64,000 bases of DNA, taken from the NCBI RefSeq assembly GCF_003334785.1, contig NZ_QOWV01000001.1; one strand, 5' to 3'. Numbering within the stretch: the first letter of the stretch is position 1; every line of letters starts with the position of its first letter. Position numbers and translations under genes: made by a program. Origin of the DNA: Escherichia coli. GTDB taxonomy: Bacteria > Pseudomonadota > Gammaproteobacteria > Enterobacterales > Enterobacteriaceae. Under the pieces are notes generated by a model that was given only the letters and a program-made list of their open reading frames with translations, made no database searches and had not been told where the DNA came from. Shown here one piece after another: positions 21,044 through 62,187 of this stretch.

Positions 21044-22009
21044 ATGGGCAAAGCAGTCATTGCAATTCATGGTGGCGCAGGTGCAATTAGCCGCGCGCAG
21101 ATGAGTCTGCAACAGGAATTACGCTACATCGAGGCGTTGTCTGCCATTGTTGAAACCGGGCAGAAAATGCTGGAAGCGGGCGAAAGTGCGCTGGATGTGG
21201 TGACGGAAGCGGTGCGTCTGCTGGAAGAGTGTCCACTGTTTAACGCCGGAATTGGCGCTGTCTTTACGCGTGATGAAACCCATGAACTGGACGCCTGTGT
21301 GATGGATGGTAACACCCTGAAAGCCGGTGCGGTGGCGGGCGTTAGTCATCTGCGTAATCCGGTTCTTGCCGCCCGGCTGGTGATGGAGCAAAGCCCGCAT
21401 GTGATGATGATTGGCGAAGGGGCAGAAAATTTTGCGTTTGCTCGTGGCATGGAGCGCGTCTCGCCGGAGATTTTCTCCACGCCTTTGCGTTATGAACAAC
21501 TACTGGCAGCGCGCAAGGAAGGGGCAACCGTCCTCGACCATAGCGGTGCGCCACTGGATGAAAAACAGAAAATGGGCACCGTGGGGGCCGTGGCGTTGGA
21601 TTTAGACGGCAATTTGGCGGCAGCCACGTCCACAGGCGGAATGACCAATAAATTACCCGGACGAGTTGGCGATAGTCCCTTAGTGGGTGCCGGATGCTAC
21701 GCCAATAACGCCAGTGTGGCGGTTTCTTGTACCGGCACGGGCGAAGTCTTCATCCGCGCGCTGGCGGCATATGACATCGCCGCGTTAATGGATTACGGCG
21801 GATTAAGTCTCGCGGAAGCCTGCGAGCGGGTAGTAATGGAAAAACTCCCTGCGCTTGGCGGTAGCGGTGGCTTAATCGCTATCGACCATGAAGGGAATGT
21901 CGCGCTACCGTTTAACACCGAAGGAATGTATCGCGCCTGGGGCTACGCAGGCGATACGCCAACCACCGGTATCTACCGTGAAAAAGGGGACACCGTTGCC
22001 ACACAGTGA
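21044..22009 (+). CDS. iaaA: Isoaspartyl dipeptidase / L-asparaginase (Ntn hydrolase)
   Basis: 321-aa ORF with autoprocessing site region GTVGAVALD. Confidence 0.9.
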
Positions 22010-23867
22010 TGAACTTGATGCCGGTAATGTGCTGGCGGTTGAAAATCTGAATATTGCCTTTATGCAGGACCAGCAGAAAATAGCTGCGGTCCGCAATCTC
22101 TCTTTTAGTCTGCAACGCGGTGAGACGCTGGCAATTGTTGGCGAATCCGGCTCCGGTAAGTCAGTGACTGCGTTGGCATTGATGCGCCTGTTGGAACAGG
22201 CGGGCGGTTTAGTACAGTGCGATAAAATGCTGTTGCAGCGGCGCAGTCGCGAAGTGATTGAACTTAGCGAGCAGAACGCTGCACAAATGCGCCATGTTCG
22301 CGGTGCGGATATGGCGATGATATTTCAGGAGCCGATGACATCGCTGAACCCGGTATTTACTGTGGGTGAACAGATTGCCGAATCAATTCGTCTGCATCAG
22401 AACGCCAGTCGTGAAGAAGCGATGGTCGAGGCGAAGCGGATGCTGGATCAGGTACGCATTCCTGAGGCACAAACCATTCTTTCACGTTATCCGCATCAAC
22501 TCTCTGGCGGGATGCGCCAGCGAGTGATGATTGCGATGGCGCTGTCATGCCGCCCGGCGGTGCTGATTGCCGATGAGCCAACCACCGCGCTGGATGTCAC
22601 TATTCAGGCGCAGATCCTGCAATTAATCAAAGTATTGCAAAAAGAGATGTCGATGGGCGTTATCTTTATCACTCACGATATGGGCGTGGTGGCAGAGATT
22701 GCCGATCGGGTACTGGTGATGTATCAGGGCGAGGCGGTGGAAACGGGTACCGTCGAACAGATTTTTCATGCACCGCAACATCCTTACACCCGTGCGCTGT
22801 TAGCTGCTGTTCCGCAACTTGGTGCGATGAAAGGGTTAGATTATCCCCGACGTTTCCCGTTGATATCGCTTGAACATCCAGCGAAACAGGCCCCCCCCAT
22901 CGAGCAGAAAACGGTGGTGGATGGCGAACCTGTTTTACGAGTGCGTAATCTTGTCACCCGTTTCCCTTTGCGCAGCGGTTTGTTGAATCGCGTAACGCGG
23001 GAAGTGCATGCCGTTGAGAAAGTCAGTTTTGATCTCTGGCCTGGCGAAACGCTATCGCTGGTGGGCGAGTCTGGCAGCGGTAAATCCACTACCGGGCGGG
23101 CGTTGCTGCGCCTGGTCGAATCGCAGGGCGGCGAAATTATCTTTAACGGTCAGCGAATCGATACCTTGTCACCCGGCAAACTTCAGGCATTACGCCGGGA
23201 TATTCAGTTTATTTTTCAGGACCCTTACGCTTCGCTGGACCCACGTCAGACCATCGGTGATTCGATTATCGAACCGCTGCGTGTACACGGTTTATTGCCA
23301 GGTAAAGACGCGGCTGCACGCGTTGCGTGGTTGCTGGAGCGCGTGGGCCTGTTACCTGAACATGCCTGGCGTTACCCGCATGAGTTTTCCGGCGGTCAGC
23401 GCCAGCGCATCTGCATTGCTCGCGCGTTGGCATTGAATCCAAAAGTGATCATTGCCGACGAAGCCGTTTCGGCGCTGGATGTTTCTATTCGCGGGCAGAT
23501 TATCAACTTGTTGCTCGATCTCCAGCGTGATTTCGGCATTGCGTATCTGTTTATCTCCCACGATATGGCGGTGGTAGAGCGGATTAGTCATCGTGTGGCG
23601 GTGATGTATCTCGGGCAAATTGTTGAAATTGGTCCACGGCGCGCGGTCTTCGAAAACCCGCAGCATCCTTATACGCGTAAATTACTGGCGGCAGTTCCGG
23701 TCGCTGAACCGTCCCGACAACGACCGCAGCGTGTACTGCTGTCGGACGATCTTCCCAGCAATATTCATCTGCGTGGCGAAGAGGTGGCAGCCGTCTCGTT
23801 GCAATGCGTCGGGCCGGGGCATTACGTCGCACAACCACAATCAGAATACGCATTCATGCGTAGATAA
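21996..23867 (+). CDS. gsiA: Glutathione ABC importer ATP-binding protein (tandem ABC domains)
   Basis: Two ABC cassettes (GESGSGKS twice, LSGGMRQR and FSGGQRQR); start taken at in-frame TTG (LPHSDELD) overlapping iaaA end, 623 aa. Confidence 0.85.
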
Positions 23868-23886
23868 CATTCAGGCGGAGAATAAA

Positions 23887-25425
23887 ATGGCAAGAGCTGT
23901 ACACCGTAGTGGGTTAGTGGCGCTGGGCATTGCGACAGCGTTGATGGCATCTTGTGCATTCGCTGCCAAAGATGTGGTGGTGGCGGTAGGATCGAATTTC
24001 ACCACGCTCGATCCGTATGACGCAAATGACACGTTATCTCAGGCCGTAGCGAAATCGTTTTACCAGGGGCTGTTCGGTCTGGATAAAGAGATGAAACTGA
24101 AAAACGTGCTGGCGGAGAGTTATACCGTTTCCGATGACGGCATTACTTACACCGTGAAATTGCGGGAAGGCATTAAATTCCAGGATGGCACCGATTTCAA
24201 CGCCGCGGCGGTGAAAGCGAATCTGGACCGGGCCAGCGATCCGGCGAATCATCTTAAACGCTATAACCTGTATAAGAATATTGCTAAAACGGAAGCGATC
24301 GATCCGACAACGGTAAAGATTACCCTCAAACAGCCGTTCTCAGCGTTTATTAATATTCTTGCCCATCCGGCGACCGCGATGATTTCACCGGCAGCGCTGG
24401 AAAAATATGGCAAGGAGATTGGTTTTTATCCGGTGGGAACCGGACCGTATGAACTGGATACCTGGAATCAGACCGATTTTGTGAAGGTGAAAAAATTCGC
24501 GGGTTACTGGCAGCCAGGATTGCCCAAACTGGACAGCATAACCTGGCGTCCGGTGGCGGATAACAACACCCGCGCGGCAATGCTGCAAACCGGTGAAGCG
24601 CAGTTTGCTTTCCCCATTCCTTACGAGCAGGCCACACTGCTGGAGAAAAACAAAAATATCGAGTTGATGGCCAGTCCGTCAATTATGCAGCGTTATATCA
24701 GTATGAACGTGACGCAAAAGCCGTTCGATAACCCGAAGGTCCGTGAGGCGCTGAATTACGCCATTAACCGTCCGGCGCTGGTGAAAGTTGCCTTTGCGGG
24801 CTATGCAACGCCAGCTACTGGTGTGGTACCGCCAAGTATCGCCTACGCGCAAAGTTATAAACCGTGGCCTTACGATCCAGTGAAAGCGCGCGAATTACTG
24901 AAAGAGGCGGGATATCCCAACGGTTTCAGTACCACGCTGTGGTCGTCACATAACCACAGCACCGCGCAGAAAGTGCTGCAATTTACCCAGCAGCAGTTAG
25001 CGCAGGTCGGGATTAAAGCCCAGGTGACTGCGATGGATGCCGGACAGCGGGCGGCAGAAGTTGAAGGTAAAGGGCAAAAAGAGAGCGGCGTGCGGATGTT
25101 CTACACTGGCTGGTCGGCTTCAACCGGCGAAGCGGACTGGGCACTATCGCCGCTGTTTGCCTCGCAGAACTGGCCACCGACGCTGTTTAATACCGCGTTT
25201 TACAGCAATAAACAGGTGGATGACTTCCTGGCTCAGGCACTGAAAACTAATGATCCGGCGGAAAAGACCCGCTTATATAAGGCGGCGCAGGATATCATCT
25301 GGCAAGAATCGCCGTGGATCCCGCTGGTGGTAGAAAAACTGGTGTCGGCACACAGTAAAAACCTGACCGGTTTTTGGATCATGCCAGACACCGGCTTCAG
25401 CTTTGAAGACGCGGATTTGCAATAA
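23887..25425 (+). CDS. gsiB: Glutathione-binding periplasmic protein
   Basis: 512-aa product starting [26 protein letters not shown]; family 5 solute-binding protein. Confidence 0.9.
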
Positions 25426-25442
25426 GCAACGCAGGGAGTGGA

Positions 25443-26363
25443 ATGCTTAATTACGTTATCAAACGCTTACTGGGGTTGATTCCGACGCTGTTTATCGTCT
25501 CGGTGCTGGTGTTTTTATTTGTCCATATGCTGCCCGGCGATCCGGCGCGATTGATTGCCGGGCCCGAAGCTGATGCGCAGGTTATAGAACTGGTGCGTCA
25601 GCAGCTGGGGTTGGATCAGCCGCTGTATCACCAGTTCTGGCACTATATCAGCAATGCTGTGCAGGGGGATTTTGGCCTGTCGATGGTGTCGCGTCGTCCG
25701 GTTGCCGATGAGATTGCCAGCCGCTTTATGCCAACGCTGTGGCTGACCATAACCAGTATGGTCTGGGCGGTTATATTTGGTATGGCGGCGGGAATTATCG
25801 CCGCCGTCTGGCGTAACCGTTGGCCGGATCGATTGAGTATGACCATTGCGGTGTCGGGGATCTCGTTTCCGGCATTTGCTCTGGGGATGCTTTTAATTCA
25901 GGTATTCTCCGTTGAACTGGGCTGGCTGCCTACCGTGGGAGCAGACAGTTGGCAGCACTACATTTTACCCTCCCTGACGCTCGGCGCGGCAGTGGCCGCC
26001 GTGATGGCGCGCTTTACCCGCGCGTCGTTTGTCGATGTTTTAAGCGAAGATTATATGCGTACCGCGAGGGCGAAAGGGGTGAGCGAAACCTGGGTTGTCC
26101 TCAAACACGGGCTACGTAACGCGATGATCCCGGTAGTGACCATGATGGGCTTACAGTTTGGCTTTTTGCTCGGTGGTTCCATCGTTGTGGAGAAAGTTTT
26201 CAACTGGCCGGGACTTGGACGCTTACTCGTTGACTCCGTAGAAATGCGTGATTACCCGGTGATTCAGGCGGAAATTCTGCTTTTCTCGCTGGAATTTATT
26301 CTTATCAACTTAGTGGTGGATGTGCTTTACGCCGCCATTAACCCGGCTATCAGGTACAAGTAA
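25443..26363 (+). CDS. gsiC: Glutathione ABC transporter permease
   Basis: 306-aa DppB/OppB-like permease. Confidence 0.9.
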
Positions 26364-26365
26364 GG

Positions 26366-27277
26366 ATGCGACTATTTAACTGGCGACGTCAGGCGGTGTT
26401 AAACGCCATGCCACTGGTCAAACCTGACCAGGTACGTACACCGTGGCATGAATTCTGGCGACGATTTCGCCGTCAGCATATGGCGATGACCGCCGCATTA
26501 TTCGTTATTTTATTGATTGTGGTGGCCATTTTTGCACGCTGGATCGCTCCCTATGACGCCGAAAATTATTTTGATTATGACAATCTGAATAACGGACCTT
26601 CTTTGCAGCACTGGTTTGGCGTCGATTCACTGGGGCGTGACATTTTCAGCCGTGTCCTGGTTGGTGCGCAAATCTCGCTGGCGGCGGGCGTGTTTGCCGT
26701 GTTTATCGGTGCGGCGATCGGGACGTTGCTGGGCTTGCTCGCTGGATATTATGAAGGCTGGTGGGATCGGCTGATCATGCGCATTTGCGATGTGCTGTTT
26801 GCCTTCCCGGGTATTTTACTGGCGATCGCTGTTGTTGCGGTGTTGGGAAGCGGCATTGCTAACGTGATTATTGCAGTCGCCATTTTTTCCATCCCCGCGT
26901 TTGCCCGCCTGGTGCGCGGCAACACGCTGGTGTTGAAACAGCAAACCTTTATTGAGTCAGCACGCAGTATTGGTGCCAGCGATATGACCGTTTTGTTGCG
27001 TCATATCCTGCCTGGGACCGTCTCTTCTATCGTGGTGTTTTTCACCATGCGCATTGGTACCTCGATTATCTCTGCCGCCAGCCTCTCATTTCTCGGCCTC
27101 GGTGCGCAGCCGCCGACACCAGAGTGGGGAGCAATGCTCAATGAGGCTCGAGCGGATATGGTTATCGCGCCGCATGTCGCTGTTTTTCCGGCCCTGGCTA
27201 TTTTTCTGACCGTACTGGCGTTCAATTTGTTGGGCGATGGTTTACGCGATGCGCTGGATCCGAAAATTAAAGGATAG
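26366..27277 (+). CDS. gsiD: Glutathione ABC transporter permease
   Basis: 303-aa DppC/OppC-like permease. Confidence 0.9.
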
Positions 27278-27454
27278 TTACGTTTGAATATTGCTTGAAA
27301 GGGTAATCACCTCACAGGAAATTATTGCCCTAAGCAAGTGTTGTAACTTTCTGCTGATTTTGTAGAATCGGGTAATTTGGTTAAAAAGCCGCAGCAAGGG
27401 ACAATTTTTGCAGCGGCACAGCGTTCAGATAGTTATTTTGTTAAATGTATTAAC

Positions 27455-29803: not shown

Positions 29804-29810
29804 TTTACGT

Positions 29811-31139: not shown

Positions 31140-31185
31140 TCATTATTCGCAGGCCGGACAAATGATTTTGCCCGGCCTGAATTAA

Positions 31186-32511: not shown

Positions 32512-32723
32512 AGCTTAAAAAATATTCAGTTACAGGAAAGGTCAGGGCAGGGATTCTACAGAGTTCTGGATAAAATTTGTATCGCAATCTCATTCGCTGG
32601 CGGAGGCGAAGGAAATGTAAATTTTGTTAATTCGGCGTGAAGAATTGATCCTGGACAGCATTTTGCTCAAAAAATAGCCATACTATTTAATTGCAACAAG
32701 GCTGGGAAGAGGAGGATCGAAGT

Positions 32724-33107
32724 ATGTTCGTTGACAGACAGCGAATCGATCTGCTGAACCGGTTGATCGACGCACGCGTTGACCTCGCCGCATACGTGCA
32801 ACTGAGGAAGGCAAAAGGATACATGTCCGTCAGCGAAAGCAATCATCTACGAGATAACTTTTTTAAACTGAATCGCGAACTGCACGATAAATCGCTGCGG
32901 TTGAATCTTCATCTGGATCAGGAAGAGTGGAGTGCTCTTCATCATGCTGAAGAAGCATTAGCGACAGCCGCAGTATGTTTGATGAGTGGGCACCATGATT
33001 GCCCGACTGTTATTACCGTCAACGCCGATAAGCTTGAAAATTGTCTGATGAGCTTAACGCTGAGTATCCAGAGCCTGCAGAAGCACGCCATGCTTGAGAA
33101 GGCCTGA
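32724..33107 (+). CDS. bssR: Biofilm regulator BssR
   Basis: 127-aa product starting MFVDRQRIDLLNRLIDARVDL. Confidence 0.85.
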   Translation: MFVDRQRIDLLNRLIDARVDLAAYVQLRKAKGYMSVSESNHLRDNFFKLNRELHDKSLRLNLHLDQEEWSALHHAEEALATAAVCLMSGHHDCPTVITVNADKLENCLMSLTLSIQSLQKHAMLEKA

Positions 33108-33217
33108 AAACTAAGGGGGAGAAAGCGTCTCCCCCTTCATGTTTAAGTTTTTGTAAAAATGAATTTGTTATCTCCTCCACTGACTACGCTTTAAGCCAGA
33201 GTCAATCCGGAGGCGTT

Positions 33218-42484: not shown

Positions 42485-42521
42485 AAAACAATAAGTTAGG
42501 TTAAAAACAATAAGTTAGGTT
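42485..42521. repeat. Tandem 18-bp direct repeat (2 copies) next to the int 3' end; candidate integrase arm-type sites
   Basis: AAAACAATAAGTTAGGTT at 42485-42502 and 42504-42521, followed by TGGTGGT-CAG-TGGTGGT. Confidence 0.5.
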
Positions 42522-42539
42522 GGTGGTCAGTGGTGGTTA

Positions 42540-43592
42540 TTACGGGGTAATGCCAACCGCTGCCGCCACTTTGTCGCCACTTGGCAGCGTTGCCAGAGGA
42601 TTGAAACGGAGCGCCGTTTCTAGATGATCCGGTGCCAGATGTGCGTAACGCATAGTCATTTTTATATCGTGGTGTCCGAGAATTTTTTGTAAGGCCAGAA
42701 TGTTTCCACCCGACATCATGAAGTGCGCCGCAAACGTATGGCGCAGAACGTGTGTGAGTTGACCGCGAGGGAGCACGATAGACGTTTTTTCCATCACGGA
42801 TAAAAATTGAAAATAGCAGTCTGTGAAGAAATTGAACCCATCAAGCGCCATGATCTCTTCGTAAAGCTCTTTACTGATAGGGATGCTTCTGTTTTTCTTC
42901 CCCTTCGTTCTGACAAAGGTAATTCGGTATTTGGTCACCTGTGAGCGGGTAAGATTTACGGCTTCACGCCAGCGTGCGCCTGTGCTTAAGCATATCTTAA
43001 CTACCAGTGCCAGAATTGGGTCCTGACGTTTGCAATCAGCCAGCAATTCAACAATCTGCTCATGGGTAAGCCATGCCATCTCTTTTTCTGCGATGGTGAA
43101 TTTTCGCATGTTCTCCAGTGGGTTCGGATACGACCATTCGCCCAGACGGGATAGTTCGCTAAAAACACTACTTAGATAGCTTTGCTCCAGGTTAATGGTG
43201 ACCGGGCTTGCTCCTTTCTTCCATTTCTCGCTGAAGTAGATCTCGCCTGTCAGGCGTTTATCTCGATAGTGGGCAAACATTTTAGAGGTGAGATCGGTTG
43301 CAAGAGGATTGCCCAGAGCGTCAACCATCAACAGCAATTTGTCATAGACATGCTGCCCAGCTGTCAGAGATTTACCATGTAGTTTGAACCATAGCTCAAC
43401 CACGTCTTTCAGTGTTCGACGATCCACTGATTCACCCAGCCAGGGCTTTGCTTCGGTTTCTTCCATCGTGTGGCGCTCAAAAGCCAGTGCTTCGCCTTTG
43501 GTGGCGAATTGTTTACGCACACGACGCCCACTTCGTCCGGCGGGGTAACATTCGCAAAGCCATTTCCCTGTGGTTAGTTTTCGTACTGCCAT
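42540..43592 (-). CDS. int: Phage integrase, tyrosine recombinase (P2/186 Int-like)
   Basis: 350-aa ORF with catalytic signature STGARWREA, HVLRHTFAAHF and MRYAHL. Confidence 0.92.
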   Translation of the reverse strand: MAVRKLTTGKWLCECYPAGRSGRRVRKQFATKGEALAFERHTMEETEAKPWLGESVDRRTLKDVVELWFKLHGKSLTAGQHVYDKLLLMVDALGNPLATDLTSKMFAHYRDKRLTGEIYFSEKWKKGASPVTINLEQSYLSSVFSELSRLGEWSYPNPLENMRKFTIAEKEMAWLTHEQIVELLADCKRQDPILALVVKICLSTGARWREAVNLTRSQVTKYRITFVRTKGKKNRSIPISKELYEEIMALDGFNFFTDCYFQFLSVMEKTSIVLPRGQLTHVLRHTFAAHFMMSGGNILALQKILGHHDIKMTMRYAHLAPDHLETALRFNPLATLPSGDKVAAAVGITP

Positions 43593-43674
43593 AAAAAGCC
43601 CTCATATCAGAGGGCTAAATTTAACTGTATATGTAACCAGTAATCAATGTGTGATTACTATGAAACATACATTG

Positions 43675-45351
43675 CTAAGCAACATGTAGTTCATCGTTGG
43701 CGGAAGTGGCTGCTTTGCGCTCCTGCTCAATAGCTAGAGACTCTCTATATTCTTTCGCCTCTGCAAACATTGTCCAGTGGGCGTTGATGTTCATGTCTTC
43801 AATAACTGATTTGATTTCTTTTAAATTTACGTTAAAAAACTCTTTTCGTGAGTTAATTTTATTGACCTGCTTTTCGTTGAAAACTTTATGCAGATGGTTT
43901 TCTAATGATGGTGCATCATCACTATAAATCATCGCATGAACATCGAACGAAAAAGGAACACTAGCATCTCCGAGTTCACGAACACGATCAAGTGGTTCAA
44001 GGCGGCGTGTCATTCCAATTTTATATACATCTTCGCCAAATGAACCAATATTACTAATGATATAGACGTGGCCTGATCTGGTTTGTTGAGCCATAGAAAT
44101 AGCTCGTTGATTTTTAGCTTCAGCTTCTTCATATTTTAACTGTAGTTCAGCTATTTTTTGCTCTAAAGCTAAGCGTTGTTCTTCATTTGCAAGCATAAGT
44201 TCTTTCGTTGCTTTATTTATAGCTTGCTGAATAGCTTTTTCTTCTTTTTCAGCTTCTTTTATCGCTTTTTCATATTCTCTACGAGCTCTTTCCTCTTCAC
44301 GAAGCTGTTCTTTAATCCTTCTTTGCTCTTCTTTTTCTTCGAGCATAATTTCATTAACTGCTACACCCCATTTTAGCTCGTTGAGTCTTGCCTGAAGATA
44401 GATGTCACTTATTTTTGCGGACCTAAAGGCAGAGCCATTGTAATTTACTAGTTGAAATGCATCTTTTATTTCTTGGGAAAGTTTTCCAAAATTGTTGTGT
44501 TTGACTTTTGATAAAATACTGTCAACTCTTCCATTGAAGGCATCCAAAACAAAGTTTATGGCAGTATTACGCCTGTTTTGCTCAACATAATCACACGAAG
44601 CAGCTTTATTAGTTTTTATTAATGATTTGGTTAACTCTCTGGCTTTTTGTAATTCCTTGCCTGCATCTGTAAATTCATAATTTTCTGCCAGCTCATCAAG
44701 TACACTACGGTTAGGGATGATCCATTCATCACCATAACCTTCAATTTTATTTTTCATTGATTTTGCAACTGCTTCATATTTTTCTGCAAACTCTTTAGCT
44801 TCATATGCTGAACCAGCAATCTCCTTTGCTCTTTCTTCTGCATCAGAAATAATTTTTACTGCATTGTCATTAGCATTTGAGATTAGCTCATTTGCTTTAT
44901 TATTAGCATTATCAAGACGTTCTTTGGCTTTCAGGCGTGCATCGCGAGCGTCTTTGGTGATTGCTATAGCTTCGCTATTAGCGTTGCTTATTGTCATCTG
45001 AGCTTGATAATTTGCTTCGTTTACTGTTTTAGCCGCCTTAATTTGGGCTTCATCTATTTTTTGCTTGGCTATTGAGTCCGCATTTTTTATCTTATTCTCT
45101 GCATCCATTACTGCGCTGTGCAATTCTTCGTATTGCCACAATGGTGCTGCTCGCCCTTCAAGCTCTGATAATTCTCGTACGGTCTGTGCTAGTTTTTCTT
45201 GATTTTCAATCAGTTGGTTAGAAAGGGCTATGTTGTTAGCTGTCAGGTTATCTATAGCCGCTTTGTGTTTTTTACTTTGTTTAAATAATATTACAGCTAG
45301 AACAGGGGCGAGAAATGCTAATAAGAGTATAACGATGGCAAATGAATTCAT
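43675..45351 (-). CDS. Prophage accessory protein: N-terminal TM helix, long coiled coils, C-terminal GIY-YIG-like (T5orf172-type) domain; candidate anti-phage gene
   Basis: 558-aa ORF between int and the CI-like gene, co-oriented with both; AT-rich; hydrophobic N-terminus FAIVILLLAFLAPVLAVILF; K/E/A-rich heptad regions; C-terminal GHVYIISN...YKIGMTRR...E...N motif block. Confidence 0.8.
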   Translation of the reverse strand: MNSFAIVILLLAFLAPVLAVILFKQSKKHKAAIDNLTANNIALSNQLIENQEKLAQTVRELSELEGRAAPLWQYEELHSAVMDAENKIKNADSIAKQKIDEAQIKAAKTVNEANYQAQMTISNANSEAIAITKDARDARLKAKERLDNANNKANELISNANDNAVKIISDAEERAKEIAGSAYEAKEFAEKYEAVAKSMKNKIEGYGDEWIIPNRSVLDELAENYEFTDAGKELQKARELTKSLIKTNKAASCDYVEQNRRNTAINFVLDAFNGRVDSILSKVKHNNFGKLSQEIKDAFQLVNYNGSAFRSAKISDIYLQARLNELKWGVAVNEIMLEEKEEQRRIKEQLREEERARREYEKAIKEAEKEEKAIQQAINKATKELMLANEEQRLALEQKIAELQLKYEEAEAKNQRAISMAQQTRSGHVYIISNIGSFGEDVYKIGMTRRLEPLDRVRELGDASVPFSFDVHAMIYSDDAPSLENHLHKVFNEKQVNKINSRKEFFNVNLKEIKSVIEDMNINAHWTMFAEAKEYRESLAIEQERKAATSANDELHVA

Positions 45352-45371
45352 TTTAAAATCCTTTTACTATA

Positions 45372-45968
45372 TTAATTCGAGACTATTGTACTTCTTATAC
45401 AAGCAACCACTTCAATATCAGAAAATGCACATTCAAAGCTATTCTCTGCTGTTGTAATTTTAATCATTCCTTTAGGAAGCCTTGTGATTTTTCGAATGGA
45501 ATAGGTTCCGTCGATATTGATTAACCAGTTTCCATCAAGTACTTCAGAAAATTTTTGATCACAAATGTATGTGACGAGTCCATCCTGAACAACAATTGGT
45601 GATGAAAGGTTTGCAGGAAGAAATGATGAATCGAAGACATATGAACCGTCTTCAATCATTTTGCCTGCGGCAAGGCGAAACTTAACAAGCTCTTCTGTAG
45701 CTGCTGTCAGCGAGCTTTGCTTAAGGCCTTGTCCGGTAGTTAACCATTTGAGGGAGGTTCCTGTTTCAAGAGCACATTGGATTATCCAGTCAGCAGGAAA
45801 TGTATCCCGCAAATACCTGTTCGCTAGTGTGCTTTTTGATACTTCCAAGTGATCAGCTAAAGCCTGTCGTGTCGTAAAGCCATAGGCTTCGACTAATCGC
45901 TCAATCGCAGCCTTACCACCTTTATTGGGATTTATTTTGATCTCACTTGGGTACTTTGATGTTGACAT
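45372..45968 (-). CDS. cI: Phage immunity repressor (186 CI-like)
   Basis: 198-aa ORF with HTH region FTTRQALADHLEVSKSTLANRYL, transcribed divergently from the apl/cII-like genes. Confidence 0.8.
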   Translation of the reverse strand: MSTSKYPSEIKINPNKGGKAAIERLVEAYGFTTRQALADHLEVSKSTLANRYLRDTFPADWIIQCALETGTSLKWLTTGQGLKQSSLTAATEELVKFRLAAGKMIEDGSYVFDSSFLPANLSSPIVVQDGLVTYICDQKFSEVLDGNWLINIDGTYSIRKITRLPKGMIKITTAENSFECAFSDIEVVACIRSTIVSN

Positions 45969-46013
45969 ATCTCTTTTGCGATCCTAGTATCAGTTTTGTA
46001 CCCAATTGGGTAC
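45962..46013 (+). promoter_or_regulatory. Candidate rightward early promoter (pR-like) with palindromic operator
   Basis: -35 TTGACA (45962-45967), 17-bp spacer, -10 TAGTAT (45985-45990), then perfect 16-bp palindrome GTACCCAATTGGGTAC (45998-46013). Confidence 0.5.
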
Positions 46014-46063
46014 TTGTCACGATTACTACAGGCTCACCACAAGCCAATAGGAGATGTTGCATC

Positions 46064-46285
46064 ATGACCCCTAACATTTCAATAACTCTGAATACGCCAC
46101 ACGTCACAATCGAGCGTTATAGCGAACTTACTGGTCTTTCAATCGACACAATCAACGATATGTTGGCGGATGGTCGCATTCCTCGGCATCGTCTTCGTAA
46201 AGACAAGAAAAGAGAAAAGGTAATGATCAACCTTGCTGCTCTTACCGTTGATGCACTTACTGATTGCAATGTTGTATTCAACTAG
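46064..46285 (+). CDS. Small DNA-binding switch protein (186 Apl / P2 Cox-like)
   Basis: 73-aa [35 protein letters not shown] with HTH-like segment, first gene of the rightward operon; GGAGA RBS. Confidence 0.65.
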
Positions 46286-46317
46286 TTCCATTTTGGGATA
46301 CATCAGAGGTGTCGACC

Positions 46318-46827
46318 ATGTTTGATTACCAAGTTTCCAAACATCCACATTTTGATGAAGCCTGTCGAGCATTCGCACTGCGCCACAATCTGGTGCAACT
46401 GGCAGAACGTGCGGGCATGAATGTGCAGATTCTGCGGAACAAGCTGAACCCAGCTCAACCTCATTTATTAACCGCACCAGAAATCTGGCTGCTTACCGAT
46501 CTGACTGAAGATTCAACGTTGGTAGATGGTTTTCTGGCACAGATTCATTGTCTGCCATGTGTACCGATTAATGAGGTAGCAAAAGAGAAACTGCCGCATT
46601 ACGTCATGAGCGCAACTGCAGAGATCGGGCGTGTTGCAGCAGGTGCGGTATCTGGTGATGTAAAAACTAGTGCCGGTCGTCGTGATGCTATCAGCAGCAT
46701 TAACTCTGTAACACGACTGATGGCGCTGGCTGCTGTTTCATTGCAAGCCCGTTTACAGGCTAATCCTGCGATGGCGAGTGCAGTTGATACCATGACTGGC
46801 CTTGGTGCTTCATTCGGTTTGCTGTGA
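46318..46827 (+). CDS. cII: Phage regulatory protein CII (186 CII-like)
   Basis: 169-aa product [45 protein letters not shown]... resembling 186 CII as I recall it; GAGGTG RBS 7 nt upstream. Confidence 0.8.
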
Positions 46828-46834
46828 GGTGTTT

Positions 46835-47131
46835 ATGCTGACGAAAGAACCATCATTTGCATCGCTGCTGGTAAAACAAAGCCCGGCAATGCACTACGGT
46901 CACGGCTGGATCACGGGTGAGGATGGAAAACGCTGGCATCCATGTCATTCACAAGATGAATTGCTGTCTGAATTGACCACGAGGAAACGGAGAAAGTCCA
47001 AATGTATGCGGCAGAAAGTGAAGTGGTTTATCAGTTTCGTTACAGAGGGGAGAGTTATTCAGTACCTGAAGATGATTTGCTCTGTTGCTATCCGTCATTG
47101 TCGGGCGATGGCAGTTACTTTTTCACGTTAA
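46835..47131 (+). CDS. Hypothetical small early protein; 3' end uncertain
   Basis: ATG with GAGGTG RBS; the last 130 nt overlap the next ORF in another frame and look less protein-like. Confidence 0.45.
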   Translation: MLTKEPSFASLLVKQSPAMHYGHGWITGEDGKRWHPCHSQDELLSELTTRKRRKSKCMRQKVKWFISFVTEGRVIQYLKMICSVAIRHCRAMAVTFSR

Positions 47132-47226
47132 AGGATGGGACGTTTTTACGGGGAGAGCAGGTTAAAGAGACGATACGAAAAAATGTATCTCCTCTTGAGC
47201 GTTACCGTAAGAACAAAGAACGATAG
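47002..47226 (+). CDS. Hypothetical small early protein
   Basis: 74-aa ORF MYAAESEVVYQFRYRGESYSVPEDD... with GGAGAAAG RBS. Confidence 0.55.
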   Translation: MYAAESEVVYQFRYRGESYSVPEDDLLCCYPSLSGDGSYFFTLKDGTFLRGEQVKETIRKNVSPLERYRKNKER

Positions 47227-47248
47227 CTGCGTTTGGGGGATATGAAGT

Positions 47249-47590
47249 ATGGCAATTAATGGCGCTGCAGCAACTGTTCCATTAAGCCCCGGTGAACGCC
47301 TGAATGGACTTAATCACATTGCGGAGTTAAGGGCGAAAGTTTTTGGCCTGAATATTGAGTCAGAGCTTGAGCGGTTTATTAAAGATATGCGTGATCCACG
47401 GGATATCAATAATGAACAAAATAAACGGGCACTGGCTGCCATATTCTTTATGGCAAAAATTCCAGCTGAACGTCATAGCATCAGCATTAATGAGCTGACC
47501 ACTGACGAAAAGCGGGAGCTGATTAAAGCAATGAATCATTTTCGTGCAGTGGTGAGCTTATTTCCCAGACGGCTAACCATGCCGAATTAA
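47249..47590 (+). CDS. Hypothetical phage early protein
   Basis: 113-aa ORF with purine-rich RBS, co-directional in the early operon. Confidence 0.6.
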   Translation: MAINGAAATVPLSPGERLNGLNHIAELRAKVFGLNIESELERFIKDMRDPRDINNEQNKRALAAIFFMAKIPAERHSISINELTTDEKRELIKAMNHFRAVVSLFPRRLTMPN

Positions 47591-47657
47591 CCAACTAATG
47601 AAATTAATGGCGTAAACCCGCCGGGCATCCCTTTATCTAAATTCAGGAGAATTGATT

Positions 47658-47891
47658 ATGCGTAATATTGAAACCCTCACGACTAAAACCGGACCGGATG
47701 ACGCAGGGCTTAATATTTTACTGACAGAGGCTCGTCTGGAAGAACGCCGGGCAAGGGCTGAAGCAATGGCTGCTCGCCTTGATAGCCTGGCGTGTCATAT
47801 CTCATCCCGCCAGCTAAACCACGTGGAAGCGGCAGAACTGCTGCGCGTGACTGCTGAAGCAATCCAGAACGAAGCGCAGGAGATCCACTAA
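47658..47891 (+). CDS. Hypothetical phage early protein (P2 orf80/81-like position)
   Basis: 77-aa ORF from ATG with AGGAGA RBS (the track's TTG start at 47652 is rejected); stop overlaps next start. Confidence 0.6.
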   Translation: MRNIETLTTKTGPDDAGLNILLTEARLEERRARAEAMAARLDSLACHISSRQLNHVEAAELLRVTAEAIQNEAQEIH

Positions 47892-48118
47892 TGGCTGATG
47901 CAATGGATCTCGTACAGCAGCGCGTTGAAGAAGAACGCCAGCGCCATATCCGTGCAGCCCGTGCCAAATCACCGGGCGTGTCACGCGTACTTTGCATTGA
48001 ATGTGAAGCGCCAATTCCGCCAGCACGACGCCGCGCCATTCCGGGAGTGCAGCTTTGCATTACCTGTCAGGAAATCGCAGAACTGAAAGGCAAACATTAC
48101 AACGGAGGTGCTGTATGA
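47891..48118 (+). CDS. TraR/DksA-family C4 zinc-finger protein
   Basis: 75-aa ORF with CIECEAPIP...CITCQ four-cysteine motif; translationally coupled to neighbours. Confidence 0.75.
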   Translation: MADAMDLVQQRVEEERQRHIRAARAKSPGVSRVLCIECEAPIPPARRRAIPGVQLCITCQEIAELKGKHYNGGAV

Positions 48119-58029: not shown

Positions 58030-58932
58030 GTGAAAATTGCCATATTGTCCCGGGATGGAACGCTCTATTCGTGTAAGCGGCTGCGTGAAGCCGCTATACA
58101 GCGCGGTCACCTGGTTGAAATTCTTGATCCGCTTTCTTGCTACATGAACATAAATCCTGCGGCGTCTTCTATTCACTACAAAGGCCGCAAGTTACCCCAT
58201 TTTGACGCAGTGATCCCGCGTATTGGCACCGCCATTACCTTTTATGGGACGGCGGCACTGCGCCAGTTCGAGATGCTGGGGAGCTATCCGCTCAATGAGT
58301 CGGTCGCCATTGCCCGGGCGCGTGACAAATTGCGTTCCATGCAACTGCTGGCGCGTCAGGGCATCGACCTGCCTGTCACGGGCATTGCGCATTCGCCGGA
58401 TGATACCAGCGATTTAATCGACATGGTCGGTGGTGCGCCGCTGGTGGTCAAGTTGGTTGAAGGCACGCAGGGAATTGGCGTCGTGCTGGCGGAGACGCGT
58501 CAGGCGGCGGAAAGCGTGATTGACGCTTTCCGCGGTCTGAACGCGCATATTCTGGTGCAGGAATATATCAAAGAGGCGCAAGGGTGCGATATCCGCTGTC
58601 TGGTTGTTGGCGATGAAGTGGTCGCTGCGATTGAACGGCGGGCGAAAGAGGGCGATTTTCGTTCCAATTTGCATCGTGGCGGCGCGGCAAGCGTCGCCAG
58701 TATCACACCACAGGAGCGTGAAATCGCGATAAAAGCCGCGCGAACGATGGCGCTGGACGTTGCTGGTGTGGATATTCTGCGTGCTAATCGCGGGCCGTTG
58801 GTGATGGAGGTGAATGCGTCGCCGGGGCTGGAAGGAATAGAAAAAACCACCGGTATCGACATCGCGGGTAAAATGATCCGCTGGATCGAACGCCACGCTA
58901 CGACAGAATATTGCCTGAAAACGGGTGGTTAG
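58030..58932 (+). CDS. rimK: Ribosomal protein S6 glutamate ligase (ATP-grasp)
   Basis: 300-aa ATP-grasp ORF with apparent GTG start. Confidence 0.92.
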
Positions 58933-59019
58933 TCGCAATCACATTACTGATCATGGTTTTGCCTGCGCTTTTTGCGTAAGCTGTGCCGGTCTTTTTATCG
59001 AAAGAGGTTGTACAAAATT

Positions 59020-59496
59020 ATGACATCGCTGGTCGTTCCTGGTCTGGATACGCTGCGTCAATGGCTCGATGACCTGGGGATGAGTTTTTTTGAATGTGAT
59101 AACTGTCAGGCTCTGCATCTGCCCCATATGCAGAATTTCGACGGTGTCTTTGATGCCAAAATCGATCTGATCGATAACACGATCCTGTTTTCTGCCATGG
59201 CGGAAGTCCGACCTTCAGCCGTATTGCCGCTGGCGGCGGATTTATCTGCCATCAATGCCAGTTCGCTGACCGTGAAAGCATTTCTTGATATGCAGGATGA
59301 TAATCTGCCAAAGCTGGTGGTTTGCCAGTCTTTATCCGTTATGCAGGGCGTAACCTATGAGCAGTTTGCATGGTTCGTGCGTCAGAGCGAAGAGCAGATT
59401 TCGATGGTCATTCTTGAAGCTAATGCCCATCAACTGCTGTTACCGACTGATGATGAAGGGCAAAACAACGTTACCGAAAACTATTTCCTCCACTGA
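59020..59496 (+). CDS. ybjN: YbjN-family putative sensory transduction regulator
   Basis: 158-aa product starting MTSLVVPGLDTLRQW. Confidence 0.85.
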   Translation: MTSLVVPGLDTLRQWLDDLGMSFFECDNCQALHLPHMQNFDGVFDAKIDLIDNTILFSAMAEVRPSAVLPLAADLSAINASSLTVKAFLDMQDDNLPKLVVCQSLSVMQGVTYEQFAWFVRQSEEQISMVILEANAHQLLLPTDDEGQNNVTENYFLH

Positions 59497-59846
59497 TAAC
59501 TCCTTTCGAGCACGCAGTCGCTGGTGCAGTGGCTGCGCGCTGCAAAATTATCTGCTGTTTTTAACCTTTTCTTAAAGATTATTTCACTTCTCTTGTGTCG
59601 ATTTGGCTTTATCACATAGAGCAAATATGCATAAAAATTTGTTAAATACCGTTTTTTAATCCGAGCTATAGTCTCAAACCCTGGCTAAAGTTATTCTTGC
59701 GATGCTTTTATATAGCGAGCAGTGCTGGCCGGGAGAAAGTTCTCTTTTATTACACCGCGCCGATAAAAAATATGCACGTTTATTGCATATCTTTCAGTGT
59801 GACAACTTTTGTTCGTTTGTTAACGAACTTTCAGAAGGAAAGAGAT

Positions 59847-60959
59847 ATGACCGCCTTAAATAAAAAATGGCTATCGGGTCTGGTTGCGGGTGCTCTGATG
59901 GCCGTCTCTGTCGGCACGCTCGCGGCTGAACAAAAAACACTCCACATTTATAACTGGTCTGATTATATCGCCCCGGACACGGTGGCCAATTTTGAAAAAG
60001 AAACCGGTATTAAAGTCGTCTACGATGTTTTCGACTCTAACGAAGTACTGGAAGGCAAATTAATGGCCGGGAGTACCGGCTTTGATCTGGTGGTTCCATC
60101 TGCCAGCTTTCTGGAGCGCCAGTTGACTGCGGGAGTTTTCCAGCCGCTGGACAAAAGCAAATTGCCGGAGTGGAAGAATCTCGACCCGGAACTGCTGAAG
60201 CTGGTCGCCAAACACGATCCCGACAATAAATTTGCTATGCCCTATATGTGGGCGACGACCGGGATTGGCTATAACGTTGATAAAGTTAAAGCGGTGCTGG
60301 GCGAAAACGCGCCCGTCGATAGCTGGGACTTGATCCTCAAACCTGAAAATCTGGAAAAACTGAAAAGCTGCGGTGTCTCTTTCCTGGATGCGCCAGAAGA
60401 AGTTTTTGCTACCGTGTTGAATTATCTCGGCAAAGATCCCAACAGCACTAAAGCGGATGATTACACCGGACCGGCAACAGATCTGCTGTTAAAGCTGCGC
60501 CCGAACATTCGTTATTTCCATTCATCTCAATACATTAACGACCTGGCAAACGGCGATATTTGCGTCGCTATCGGCTGGGCAGGTGATGTCTGGCAGGCGT
60601 CAAACCGCGCGAAGGAAGCGAAGAATGGCGTGAATGTCTCGTTCTCGATTCCAAAAGAAGGGGCGATGGCGTTCTTTGATGTATTCGCCATGCCTGCGGA
60701 TGCCAAAAACAAAGACGAAGCCTATCAGTTCCTGAATTACCTGCTGCGCCCGGATGTAGTAGCGCATATTTCCGACCATGTGTTCTATGCCAACGCCAAT
60801 AAAGCAGCCACGCCGCTGGTGAGTGCGGAAGTCCGTGAGAACCCAGGTATTTATCCGCCTGCGGATGTTCGTGCGAAGCTGTTCACTCTGAAAGTGCAGG
60901 ATCCGAAAATCGACCGTGTGCGCACCCGCGCGTGGACCAAAGTGAAGAGCGGAAAATAA
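59847..60959 (+). CDS. potF: Putrescine-binding periplasmic protein
   Basis: 370-aa product starting MTALNKKWLSGLVAGALMAVSVGTLAA (signal peptide). Confidence 0.92.
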   Translation: MTALNKKWLSGLVAGALMAVSVGTLAAEQKTLHIYNWSDYIAPDTVANFEKETGIKVVYDVFDSNEVLEGKLMAGSTGFDLVVPSASFLERQLTAGVFQPLDKSKLPEWKNLDPELLKLVAKHDPDNKFAMPYMWATTGIGYNVDKVKAVLGENAPVDSWDLILKPENLEKLKSCGVSFLDAPEEVFATVLNYLGKDPNSTKADDYTGPATDLLLKLRPNIRYFHSSQYINDLANGDICVAIGWAGDVWQASNRAKEAKNGVNVSFSIPKEGAMAFFDVFAMPADAKNKDEAYQFLNYLLRPDVVAHISDHVFYANANKAATPLVSAEVRENPGIYPPADVRAKLFTLKVQDPKIDRVRTRAWTKVKSGK

Positions 60960-61053
60960 TCCGCAGTCGTAGATGCCGGAGGGGCGCACCACACCCGCCG
61001 GCAATTCGCACCATTATGGTGCGCTTGCACACATTCAATGCCGGAGAGCAGCC

Positions 61054-62187
61054 GTGAATGACGCTATCCCTCGCCCGCAGGCGAAAACCCGTAAGGCGCT
61101 GACGCCGCTATTAGAAATCCGCAACCTGACCAAATCCTACGATGGTCAACATGCGGTGGATGATGTCAGCCTGACCATCTACAAAGGTGAAATCTTCGCG
61201 CTGCTGGGCGCATCCGGCTGTGGCAAGTCCACGCTGCTGCGTATGCTGGCAGGTTTCGAACAACCTTCTGCCGGACAGATAATGCTTGATGGCGTCGATT
61301 TGTCACAGGTTCCGCCTTACCTGCGCCCCATCAATATGATGTTTCAGTCTTACGCGCTGTTTCCGCATATGACCGTGGAACAGAACATCGCTTTTGGCCT
61401 GAAACAGGACAAACTACCGAAAGCGGAAATTGCCAGCCGGGTCAATGAGATGCTCGGCCTGGTGCATATGCAGGAGTTCGCCAAACGCAAACCGCATCAG
61501 CTTTCCGGTGGTCAGCGACAACGTGTGGCCCTGGCCCGAAGCCTTGCGAAGCGCCCGAAACTATTACTGCTCGATGAGCCGATGGGCGCGCTGGATAAAA
61601 AGCTGCGTGACCGGATGCAGCTTGAAGTGGTGGATATTCTGGAGCGCGTCGGTGTGACTTGTGTGATGGTCACCCACGATCAGGAAGAGGCGATGACCAT
61701 GGCGGGGCGCATCGCCATTATGAATCGTGGGAAATTTGTCCAGATTGGCGAACCGGAAGAGATCTACGAGCATCCGACTACCCGCTATAGCGCCGAATTT
61801 ATTGGCTCGGTAAACGTCTTTGAAGGCGTACTCAAAGAGCGTCAGGAAGATGGCCTGGTGCTTGATTCGCCGGGGCTGGTGCATCCACTGAAAGTCGACG
61901 CGGATGCCTCGGTGGTCGATAACGTGCCGGTACATGTGGCGCTGCGCCCGGAAAAAATCATGCTTTGCGAAGAGCCGCCCGCCAATGGTTGTAACTTCGC
62001 GGTGGGGGAGGTGATACACATTGCCTATCTCGGCGATCTTTCGGTGTATCACGTTCGTCTGAAAAGTGGGCAGATGATTAGCGCCCAGCTACAAAACGCC
62101 CATCGTCATCGTAAAGGGTTACCGACCTGGGGCGACGAAGTGCGTTTGTGCTGGGAAGTGGACAGCTGTGTGGTGCTGACGGTTTAA
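61054..62187 (+). CDS. potG: Putrescine ABC transporter ATP-binding protein
   Basis: 377-aa product from GTG (VNDAIPRPQAK) with GASGCGKST Walker A and LSGGQRQR signature. Confidence 0.9.
   Translation: MNDAIPRPQAKTRKALTPLLEIRNLTKSYDGQHAVDDVSLTIYKGEIFALLGASGCGKSTLLRMLAGFEQPSAGQIMLDGVDLSQVPPYLRPINMMFQSYALFPHMTVEQNIAFGLKQDKLPKAEIASRVNEMLGLVHMQEFAKRKPHQLSGGQRQRVALARSLAKRPKLLLLDEPMGALDKKLRDRMQLEVVDILERVGVTCVMVTHDQEEAMTMAGRIAIMNRGKFVQIGEPEEIYEHPTTRYSAEFIGSVNVFEGVLKERQEDGLVLDSPGLVHPLKVDADASVVDNVPVHVALRPEKIMLCEEPPANGCNFAVGEVIHIAYLGDLSVYHVRLKSGQMISAQLQNAHRHRKGLPTWGDEVRLCWEVDSCVVLTV

What the first reader, a model, noticed from the sequence alone, without database searches (positions are those of the whole stretch)
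21996..61056. Several core genes appear to use non-ATG start codons
The N-termini consistent with known products require TTG for gsiA (21996) and GTG for ybiT (10439), rimK (58030) and potG (61054). This is noted because automated ORF callers often mis-set these starts.
Basis: partly seen in the sequence, partly recalled or inferred. Interest (0 to 1): 0.12.

Follow-up and report, generated by a model that had tools for sequence, protein, structure and literature searches.

The report
Four E. coli genes with GTG/TTG starts
Four ordinary E. coli housekeeping and transport genes (ybiT, gsiA, rimK, potG) do begin with GTG or TTG instead of ATG, exactly as the curated K-12 annotation says, which is a normal and well-known feature of about one bacterial gene in six.

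Summary
The window is E. coli chromosome (glnQ to potI) plus an 11.6 kb P2-like prophage remnant.

- **Codons and annotation:** the codons at 10439 (GTG, ybiT), 21996 (TTG, gsiA), 58030 (GTG, rimK) and 61054 (GTG, potG) are the starts in the curated K-12 MG1655 record. NCBI's automatic annotation agrees where checked (ybiT, gsiA).
- **Comparative evidence:** the same codon position is a start codon in every relative examined. That is 80 Enterobacterales sequences for potG, 73 for rimK, 8 taxa for gsiA and 6 genera for ybiT. Upstream extensions are unconserved and often closed by stop codons.
- **Published experiments:** initiating-ribosome data support ybiT and rimK (Ribo-RET and INRI-seq) and gsiA (TetRP). 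potG has only a weak in vitro INRI-seq signal. rimK also has an N-terminal peptide, MKIAILSR.
- **Completeness:** glnQ, ybjL and ybjM also start with GTG, giving 7 of 49 shared genes against 8.3 expected.

Two items are mildly notable. potG is never ATG in 80 species despite at least 8 GTG/TTG switches. Public gene calls for ybiT homologues are often over-extended (67 of 120 clusters).

Nothing here is new. Interest is low.

The parts
10439..10441 (+). ybiT start codon GTG (CDS 10439-12031, 530 aa)
   Evidence: It is the first possible start after an in-frame stop at codon -13 and matches K-12 b0820. GTG is conserved in 6 genera, and 4 of them have no upstream in-frame candidate. It has a Ribo-RET peak and INRI-seq peaks in 5 of 5 replicates at 855963. 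The YbiT chain in PDB entry 9njf starts at the same residue.
10428..10431 (+). ybiT Shine-Dalgarno-like AGGA, 7 nt before the GTG
   Evidence: Read directly from the sequence. CAGGA is kept in Salmonella, Leclercia and Raoultella.
10463..10465 (+). Rejected alternative: ybiT ATG at codon 9
   Evidence: No SD lies in front of it. Codons 2-8 stay LV(S/T)(S/N)N(V/I)T through synonymous changes in 6 genera. Only 2 of 120 public calls use it.
21996..21998 (+). gsiA start codon TTG (CDS 21996-23867, 623 aa), overlapping the last 14 nt of iaaA
   Evidence: It matches K-12 b0829. TetRP signal at this TTG is 46/140/71, against 0/0/3 at the 2006 start (PMC4909307 Table S2). The homologous codon is TTG in 4 taxa and GTG in 4 taxa, followed by conserved PHS.
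21985..21989 (+). gsiA Shine-Dalgarno-like AGGGG, 6 nt before the TTG
   Evidence: Read from the sequence. AAGGAG or AAGGGG sits at the same place in the other 7 taxa.
21888..21890 (+). Rejected alternative: upstream in-frame ATG of the gsiA ORF (659 aa), inside iaaA
   Evidence: It is the first start after a stop. It is absent from or closed off in Lelliottia (stop at -6), E. lignolyticus (no candidate) and E. fergusonii (stop at -10, no iaaA).
22029..22031 (+). Rejected alternative: gsiA GTG at codon 12 (the 2006 K-12 start)
   Evidence: TetRP signal there is about zero. The codon is GTT in Salmonella and GTA in Lelliottia, neither of which is a start codon.
58030..58032 (+). rimK start codon GTG (CDS 58030-58932, 300 aa)
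   Evidence: It is the first start after a stop at -9 and matches K-12 b0852. The N-terminal peptide MKIAILSR is recorded, together with Ribo-RET and INRI support (PMC13245402 Table S1). The homologous codon is GTG in 53, ATG in 19 and TTG in 1 of 73 sequences, with KIAILS invariant in all 73 and KIAILSRDG nearly so. PDB entries 5zct and 4iwx start at the same residue.
58020..58025 (+). rimK Shine-Dalgarno-like GAGGTG, 4-6 nt before the GTG
   Evidence: Read from the sequence. GAGGTG is conserved in nearly all Enterobacteriaceae loci.
61054..61056 (+). potG start codon GTG (CDS 61054-62187, 377 aa)
   Evidence: It matches K-12 b0855. The homologous codon is GTG in 65 and TTG in 15 of 80 sequences. 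Of these, 39 have a stop at codon -1 and 42 have no upstream in-frame start at all. INRI-seq shows a peak in 2 of 5 replicates. The paralogue PotA (378 aa) has an N-terminal lead of similar length.
61043..61046 (+). potG Shine-Dalgarno GGAG within the conserved block GCCGGAGAGCA, 7 nt before the GTG
   Evidence: GGAG lies 7-11 nt upstream of the start in all 80 sequences, while the rest of the 87-353 nt spacer varies.
60973..60975 (+). Rejected alternative: upstream in-frame ATG of the potG ORF (404 aa)
   Evidence: It is the first start after a stop. It is present only in the window and the one other Escherichia locus. In 59 of 80 sequences an in-frame stop lies within 27 codons upstream.

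Best explanation
These are four ordinary E. coli protein-coding genes whose translation begins at a near-cognate start codon: GTG for ybiT, rimK and potG, and TTG for gsiA.

The 30S subunit is positioned by a Shine-Dalgarno-like purine run 6-7 nt upstream. Initiator fMet-tRNA reads GUG or UUG with a first-position mismatch, so the protein still begins with (formyl)methionine. Initiation is several-fold weaker than at AUG.

**Shown here:**
- the codons, their reading frames and their SD motifs;
- identity with the curated K-12 starts;
- conservation of the start position across relatives;
- lack of conservation, or closure by stop codons, of the upstream extensions.

**Taken from published data:**
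- initiating-ribosome peaks for ybiT, rimK and gsiA, and a weak one for potG;
- an N-terminal Met peptide for rimK.

**Inferred:**
- the weak codons help set low expression, and for potG and gsiA this would tune the ATPase subunit relative to the binding protein;
- gsiA is translationally coupled to iaaA through the 14-nt overlap.
For: **Sequence and annotation**
- The codons are present, in frame and identical to K-12.
- PGAP gives the same coordinates for ybiT and gsiA.

**Published experiments**
- INRI-seq Table S2, which also tabulates Meydan's Ribo-RET peaks: ybiT has peaks in 5 of 5 replicates plus Ribo-RET 35. rimK has 3 of 5 plus Ribo-RET 26. potG has 2 of 5.
- TetRP puts the gsiA signal on the TTG rather than on the GTG 33 nt downstream.
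- TRAINSPOTTER lists the rimK N-terminal peptide MKIAILSR from the GTG at 891967.

**Comparative sequence**
- potG: 65 GTG and 15 TTG in 80 sequences. Of these, 39 have a stop at codon -1 and 42 have no upstream in-frame start.
- rimK: 53 GTG, 19 ATG and 1 TTG at the same position, with a highly conserved N-terminus (KIAILS invariant, KIAILSRDG nearly so).
- gsiA: TTG or GTG in 8 taxa, including E. fergusonii, which lacks iaaA.
- ybiT: GTG in 6 genera.

**Structures and efficiency**
- Solved structures of RimK and YbiT use these N-termini.
- GUG and UUG initiate at 10-100% of AUG, and the resulting proteins carry N-terminal Met (10.1101/063800).
Against: - No Ribo-RET peak is recorded for gsiA or potG, and no INRI-seq peak for gsiA. 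Low expression in rich medium is the likely reason, but that is inference.
- The INRI-seq templates begin about 30 nt upstream of the annotated start. They therefore could not test the potG ATG 81 nt upstream.
- No N-terminal peptide was found for YbiT, GsiA or PotG in the part of the TRAINSPOTTER table that is held, which was cut when stored.
- In E. coli the frames upstream of gsiA and potG are open, with GTG at -6 and ATG at -33 and -36 for gsiA and ATG at -27 for potG. Minor longer isoforms in this species are therefore not formally excluded.
Confidence: 0.95

Rival explanations
1. The real starts of gsiA and potG are the upstream in-frame ATGs (21888 giving 659 aa, 60973 giving 404 aa). 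This is what a first-start-after-a-stop or ATG-preferring gene caller would choose.
For: Both frames are open back to those ATGs in this sequence. ATG is the stronger start codon.
Against: - The potG ATG exists only in Escherichia. In 59 of 80 sequences a stop lies within 27 codons upstream, and in 39 it lies at codon -1. The spacer is variable, hairpin-rich non-coding DNA.
- For gsiA, Lelliottia has a stop at -6, E. lignolyticus has no upstream candidate, and E. fergusonii has a stop at -10 and no iaaA.
- The gsiA stretch upstream of the TTG lies inside iaaA in another frame.
- TetRP signal sits on the TTG.
- The curated K-12 record rejects both ATGs.
Confidence: 0.02
2. The real starts lie downstream of the claimed codons: gsiA at the GTG of codon 12 (22029, the 2006 K-12 annotation), ybiT at the ATG of codon 9 (10463), and rimK at the ATG of codon 39 (58144).
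For: The 2006 K-12 record used 22029 for gsiA. Two of 120 public YbiT calls start at MQFG.
Against: - TetRP reads about zero at the 2006 gsiA site. Codon 12 is GTT in Salmonella and GTA in Lelliottia.
- ybiT codons 2-8 are conserved as protein through synonymous changes. The SD precedes the GTG, not the ATG. The Ribo-RET and INRI peaks are assigned to 855963.
- The rimK peptide MKIAILSR was observed, and KIAILS is invariant (KIAILSRDG nearly so) in 73 sequences.
Confidence: 0.02
3. More than one start is used. The annotated GTG or TTG gives the main product, while E. coli-specific upstream codons (gsiA GTG at 21978, potG ATG at 60973) give minor N-terminally extended isoforms.
For: The upstream frames are open in E. 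coli. Alternative in-frame initiation is documented genome-wide in E. coli (10.1101/520783). The public initiation data for these two genes are sparse.
Against: - Neither upstream codon is conserved beyond close relatives.
- No SD-like motif was noted in front of the potG ATG, which lies 13 nt after the potF stop and at the foot of a GC-rich hairpin.
- No dataset examined here reports a peak at either codon.
Confidence: 0.06

Closest known systems
Curated E. coli K-12 MG1655 annotation of ybiT (b0820), gsiA (b0829), rimK (b0852) and potG (b0855), NC_000913.3
   Same: The start codon, upstream 25 nt, first 30 residues and protein length are identical.
   Different: Nothing differs at these four sites. 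The window differs from K-12 only in carrying a P2-like prophage remnant between rcdA and ybjL.
Generic GUG/UUG initiation in bacteria (14% and 3% of E. coli genes)
   Same: A near-cognate codon follows an SD and is decoded by initiator tRNA as Met, with weaker initiation than AUG (10.1101/063800). The window's 7 of 49 matches the genome-wide rate.
   Different: No difference was found.
Conserved non-ATG starts with a demonstrated expression or fitness role (lacI, cra, mlc GTG in Enterobacteriaceae; PMC11445065)
   Same: potG is non-ATG in all 80 sequences examined. gsiA is non-ATG in 8 of 8 taxa and ybiT in 6 of 6 genera. This resembles the near-exclusive GTG reported for cra and mlc.
   Different: Those cases are transcription regulators, and lacI has a swap experiment behind it. 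The genes here are ABC ATPase subunits and an ABC-F protein, and no expression or fitness test exists. rimK does not fit, because it is ATG in 19 of 73 sequences.

Membership tests
GUG/UUG-initiated bacterial protein-coding gene | A GTG or TTG in frame at the 5' boundary of the conserved coding region, with non-conserved or closed sequence upstream | tested here: met
   All four genes meet this. For potG, 39 of 80 sequences have a stop at codon -1. For ybiT, a stop lies at -13 with no upstream candidate. For rimK, a stop lies at -9. For gsiA, the upstream frame is closed in Lelliottia, E. lignolyticus and E. fergusonii.
GUG/UUG-initiated bacterial protein-coding gene | A Shine-Dalgarno-like motif about 5-10 nt upstream of the codon | tested here: met
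   AGGA at -7 for ybiT, AGGGG at -6 for gsiA, GAGG(TG) at -6 for rimK and GGAG at -7 for potG. GGAG is conserved 7-11 nt upstream of potG in all 80 sequences.
GUG/UUG-initiated bacterial protein-coding gene | An initiating-ribosome footprint on that codon (ybiT, rimK, gsiA) | tested here: met
   From published tables: ybiT and rimK have Ribo-RET and INRI-seq peaks, and gsiA has a TetRP peak on the TTG.
GUG/UUG-initiated bacterial protein-coding gene | An initiating-ribosome footprint on that codon (potG) | tested here: inconclusive
   The only signal is a weak INRI-seq peak in 2 of 5 replicates, on a template that lacks the upstream ATG. There is no Ribo-RET peak.
GUG/UUG-initiated bacterial protein-coding gene | An N-terminal peptide starting with Met at the near-cognate codon | tested here: inconclusive
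   rimK is met, with MKIAILSR. No entries for ybiT, gsiA or potG were found in the stored, truncated part of the table.
   NC_000913.3 agrees for all four genes. PGAP was checked only for ybiT and gsiA and agrees.
Start codon kept weak by selection (lacI/cra/mlc-like) | A non-ATG start conserved across genera despite repeated substitution at the codon | tested here: met
   potG has no ATG in 80 sequences, with at least 8 GTG/TTG switches, while potF, ybjN and potH are ATG. gsiA is non-ATG in 8 of 8 taxa and ybiT in 6 of 6 genera, both small samples. rimK does not meet this feature, being ATG in 19 of 73 sequences.
Start codon kept weak by selection (lacI/cra/mlc-like) | Replacing the codon with ATG raises protein level and changes fitness or subunit stoichiometry | not testable with these tools
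   This needs an allelic-swap experiment.

The most novel reading that the evidence does not exclude
The potG start codon, and perhaps that of gsiA, the other ABC-importer ATPase subunit here, is actively held at a weak GTG or TTG by selection. The purpose would be to keep the ATPase subunit low relative to the binding protein encoded just upstream.

In 80 Enterobacterales sequences potG switched between GTG and TTG at least 8 times and never became ATG, although G-to-A is the easier mutation. The neighbouring genes potF, ybjN and potH are essentially always ATG.
Probability: 0.45. Interest if true: 0.2.

Novelty: already known. Interest (0 to 1): 0.06.

Why it matters
It matters only as quality control. 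It confirms that the reference starts of these four genes are right, and it shows with concrete numbers how often automated calls go wrong at GTG/TTG starts. The first-start-after-a-stop rule adds 36 and 27 spurious residues to GsiA and PotG. More than half of the public YbiT clusters examined carry a spurious N-terminal extension. It opens no biological question. The conserved weak start of potG is a small, testable example of start-codon tuning within an operon.

Tried and rejected
- **Ribo-RET preprint:** the main text (10.1101/520783) names none of the four genes.
- **TRAINSPOTTER Table S1:** the table was cut when stored, and only rimK was found.
- **TetRP supplement:** it lists only genes whose start was revised, so it is silent on ybiT, rimK and potG.
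- **Ribo-RET and INRI-seq for gsiA and potG:** Ribo-RET has no peak for either gene, and INRI-seq has none for gsiA.
- **PDB:** there is no E. coli PotG or GsiA structure, only paralogues (PotA, mycobacterial Dpp/Rv1281c).
- **potF-potG spacer fold:** the z-score is -1.2, which is not significant, so no structured element is claimed.
- **Metagenome scan for gsiA and ybiT:** I did not run it, because the best 80 hits would be near-identical E. coli. I used protein clusters plus exact-protein contig look-ups instead.
- **Upstream-ATG and downstream-start models:** both were considered and rejected, as set out under rival explanations.
Full report
**What the window is**

A 3 kb piece around gsiA matches all 5,426 complete E. 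coli genomes at 95-100% identity. Gene order follows K-12 MG1655 from glnQ (b0809) to potI (b0857). The one difference is an extra 11.6 kb between rcdA and ybjL. That segment is a P2-like prophage remnant.

**Checking the observation**

Each claimed codon is present and in frame with an ORF of the expected length.

| Gene | Codon | Position | Protein length |
|---|---|---|---|
| ybiT | GTG | 10439 | 530 aa |
| gsiA | TTG | 21996 | 623 aa |
| rimK | GTG | 58030 | 300 aa |
| potG | GTG | 61054 | 377 aa |

The start codon, the 25 nt upstream and the first 30 residues are identical to the CDS annotated in NC_000913.3. PGAP places ybiT and gsiA at exactly these window coordinates in a strain identical over the searched 3 kb around gsiA.

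The list is incomplete. glnQ (939, minus strand), ybjL (55882, minus strand) and ybjM (56152) also start with GTG. Seven of 49 K-12-shared genes are non-ATG. At the published E. coli frequencies of 83/14/3% for AUG/GUG/UUG (10.1101/063800), 8.3 are expected. The binomial P(X>=7) is 0.75. The number is what chance gives.

**Independent evidence: rimK**

- The GTG is the first possible start after an in-frame stop nine codons upstream.
- Among 73 sequences (the window plus 72 Enterobacterales loci), the homologous codon is GTG in 53, ATG in 19 and TTG in 1. The following residues KIAILS are invariant, and KIAILSRDG is kept in all but a few.
- The TRAINSPOTTER N-terminomics table lists the peptide MKIAILSR for the GTG at 891967, with Ribo-RET and INRI-seq support (PMC13245402).
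- The INRI-seq table shows peaks in 3 of 5 replicates and a Ribo-RET peak of 26 (PMC9825163).
- Crystal structures 5zct and 4iwx begin at this residue.

**Independent evidence: ybiT**

- The GTG is the first possible start after a stop at codon -13. The only alternative is the ATG at codon 9.
- GTG is kept in E. coli, Salmonella, Leclercia, Raoultella, Pantoea and Lonsdalea. Four of these have no upstream in-frame candidate.
- Codons 2-8 stay LV(S/T)(S/N)N(V/I)T through synonymous changes, while the upstream sequence diverges apart from the AGGA motif.
- INRI-seq peaks occur in 5 of 5 replicates, and a Ribo-RET peak of 35 is assigned to 855963.
- The YbiT chain in PDB entry 9njf starts at MLVSSNV.

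**Independent evidence: gsiA**

- The frame is open for 40 codons upstream of the TTG because that stretch lies inside iaaA in another frame. Candidate starts are ATG at -36 and -33, GTG at -6, and downstream GTG at codon 12 and ATG at codon 23.
- Nakahigashi et al. (PMC4909307, Table S2 row 8) found TetRP signal of 46/140/71 on the TTG, against 0/0/3 on the 2006-annotated GTG 33 nt downstream. Their new site equals the 2014 annotation.
- Across eight taxa the homologous codon is TTG in E. coli, E. albertii, E. fergusonii and C. farmeri. It is GTG in Salmonella, Lelliottia, Leclercia and E. lignolyticus. It is always followed by PHS and preceded by AAGGAG or AAGGGG.
- The upstream frame is closed in Lelliottia (stop at -6). 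It has no candidates in E. lignolyticus. In E. fergusonii, which lacks iaaA altogether, it is intergenic with a stop at -10.
- Codon 12 is GTT in Salmonella and GTA in Lelliottia. Codon 23 is ATG only in E. coli and E. albertii.
- No Ribo-RET or INRI-seq peak is recorded for gsiA.

**Independent evidence: potG**

This gene has the weakest experimental support. INRI-seq peaks appear in 2 of 5 replicates, on a template that does not include the upstream ATG, and there is no Ribo-RET peak.

The comparative evidence is decisive.

- In 80 sequences (the window plus 79 Enterobacterales loci), the homologous codon is GTG in 65 and TTG in 15.
- An in-frame stop lies at codon -1 in 39 of them and within 27 codons in 59.
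- 42 have no upstream in-frame ATG, GTG or TTG at all, and 61 have no upstream ATG.
- GGAG sits 7-11 nt upstream in all 80, inside the conserved block GCCGGAGAGCA. The rest of the 87-353 nt spacer is variable.
- The E. coli ATG at 60973 is found only in Escherichia.
- The paralogue PotA (378 aa) aligns from its residue 10 to PotG residue 12, so the 377-aa form has a normal N-terminal lead.

**How it works**

This is the textbook mechanism. An SD-like motif 6-7 nt upstream positions the 30S subunit. Initiator tRNA decodes GUG or UUG, and the product starts with Met. Initiation is weaker than at AUG: 10-100% of AUG in Hecht et al., and 8- to 12-fold lower according to PMC11445065.

- **Shown here:** codon identity, frame, SD motif, conservation and agreement with annotation.
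- **From the literature:** ribosome peaks and the rimK peptide.
- **Inferred:** the weak codons contribute to low expression, and gsiA is coupled to iaaA through the 14-nt overlap.

**Comparison with what is known, and novelty**

Everything matches the curated K-12 record and the general class of GUG/UUG-initiated genes. The finding is already known.

- The first-start-after-a-stop rule gives 659 aa for gsiA and 404 aa for potG.
- The 2006 K-12 annotation had gsiA 11 codons short.
- Of 120 public YbiT clusters, 51 start at the right codon and 67 are N-terminally extended. In 66 of those 67, a valine sits where the GTG start was read through. Two are truncated to codon 9.

**The one mildly interesting by-product**

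potG is never ATG in 80 sequences. On a neighbour-joining tree of the gene, at least 8 GTG/TTG switches are needed. In the same loci, excluding the window, the neighbouring genes behave differently:

| Gene | Start codons in the related loci |
|---|---|
| potF | ATG in 78 of 79 |
| ybjN | ATG in 75 of 75 |
| potH | ATG in 58 of 63 (the rest look like misalignments) |
| potI | 70 ATG, 6 GTG |

If ATG were as acceptable as TTG, eight switches without a single ATG would have probability of 0.004 or less. This is my rough estimate. It assumes equal rates, ignores the transition bias that would favour ATG, and relies on a gene tree.

The pattern suggests selection for a weak start, as reported for lacI, cra and mlc (PMC11445065). 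It is not tested here and is not a new kind of phenomenon.

**Verdict**

The finding is already known and of low interest (0.06).

Noticed in passing
The window total is therefore 7 non-ATG starts among 49 shared genes.
   Followed up: yes
window 61054-61056; loci L005-L084: The potG start codon is GTG (65) or TTG (15) and never ATG in 80 Enterobacterales sequences. At least 8 independent GTG/TTG switches are needed on a gene tree. The neighbours potF, ybjN and potH are essentially always ATG, which suggests selection for a weak start on the ATPase subunit.
   Followed up: partly
window 10439 (ybiT); proteins P0121-P0240: Of 120 public YbiT protein clusters, 67 carry non-conserved N-terminal extensions of 5-53 residues. 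In 66 of them a valine sits at the true GTG start. Two clusters are truncated to the ATG at codon 9. This is a concrete example of systematic start mis-calling at a GTG start.
   Followed up: yes
window 21996-22009; loci L085-L088, L094-L096; proteins P0002-P0004: The iaaA-gsiA junction varies between taxa.
- E. coli, E. albertii and C. farmeri have a 14-nt overlap.
- In Salmonella, Lelliottia, Leclercia and E. lignolyticus, iaaA ends 5-11 nt before the start (TAA in the first three, TAG in E. lignolyticus), within or right next to the gsiA SD.
- E. fergusonii lacks iaaA entirely.
- A few E. coli assemblies yield 940-aa predicted IaaA-GsiA fusion proteins. These are presumably frameshifts at the overlap.
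   Followed up: partly
window ~42500-53700: An 11.6 kb P2-like prophage remnant lies between rcdA and ybjL and is absent from K-12.
- It encodes a tyrosine integrase (42540-43592, minus strand).
- It encodes a 558-aa protein matching the PD-Lambda-1 anti-phage defence family at E = 2e-120 (43675-45351, minus strand).
- It encodes a Dam methylase (48055-48972).
- It contains a 1034-aa ORF with a tape-measure domain only at residues 420-576, which may be a deletion fusion.
- It has a gpD-like late gene.
- Another strain carries a full P2-like prophage at the same site.
- Only one of 5,426 genomes covers more than 80% of this segment.
   Followed up: partly
window 60960-61053; loci L005-L084: The potF-potG spacer is 87-353 nt long and highly variable, with GC-rich hairpins. 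In E. coli and in the Citrobacter and Enterobacter spacers inspected there is a CGCACC-N5-GGTGCG stem followed by a T-containing run. Only the last ~20 nt (GCCGGAGAGCA plus the start) are conserved. The E. coli fold is not better than shuffles (z = -1.2). It may act as a partial terminator or stabiliser separating potF from potGHI expression.
   Followed up: partly
window 12113-12155 (-) and 54039-54117 (-): There are two Rfam matches above gathering score. ES036 (CssrF) sRNA lies just downstream of the ybiT stop on the opposite strand (41.6 bits). RybB sRNA (105 bits) lies just past the prophage remnant, between it and ybjL.
   Followed up: no
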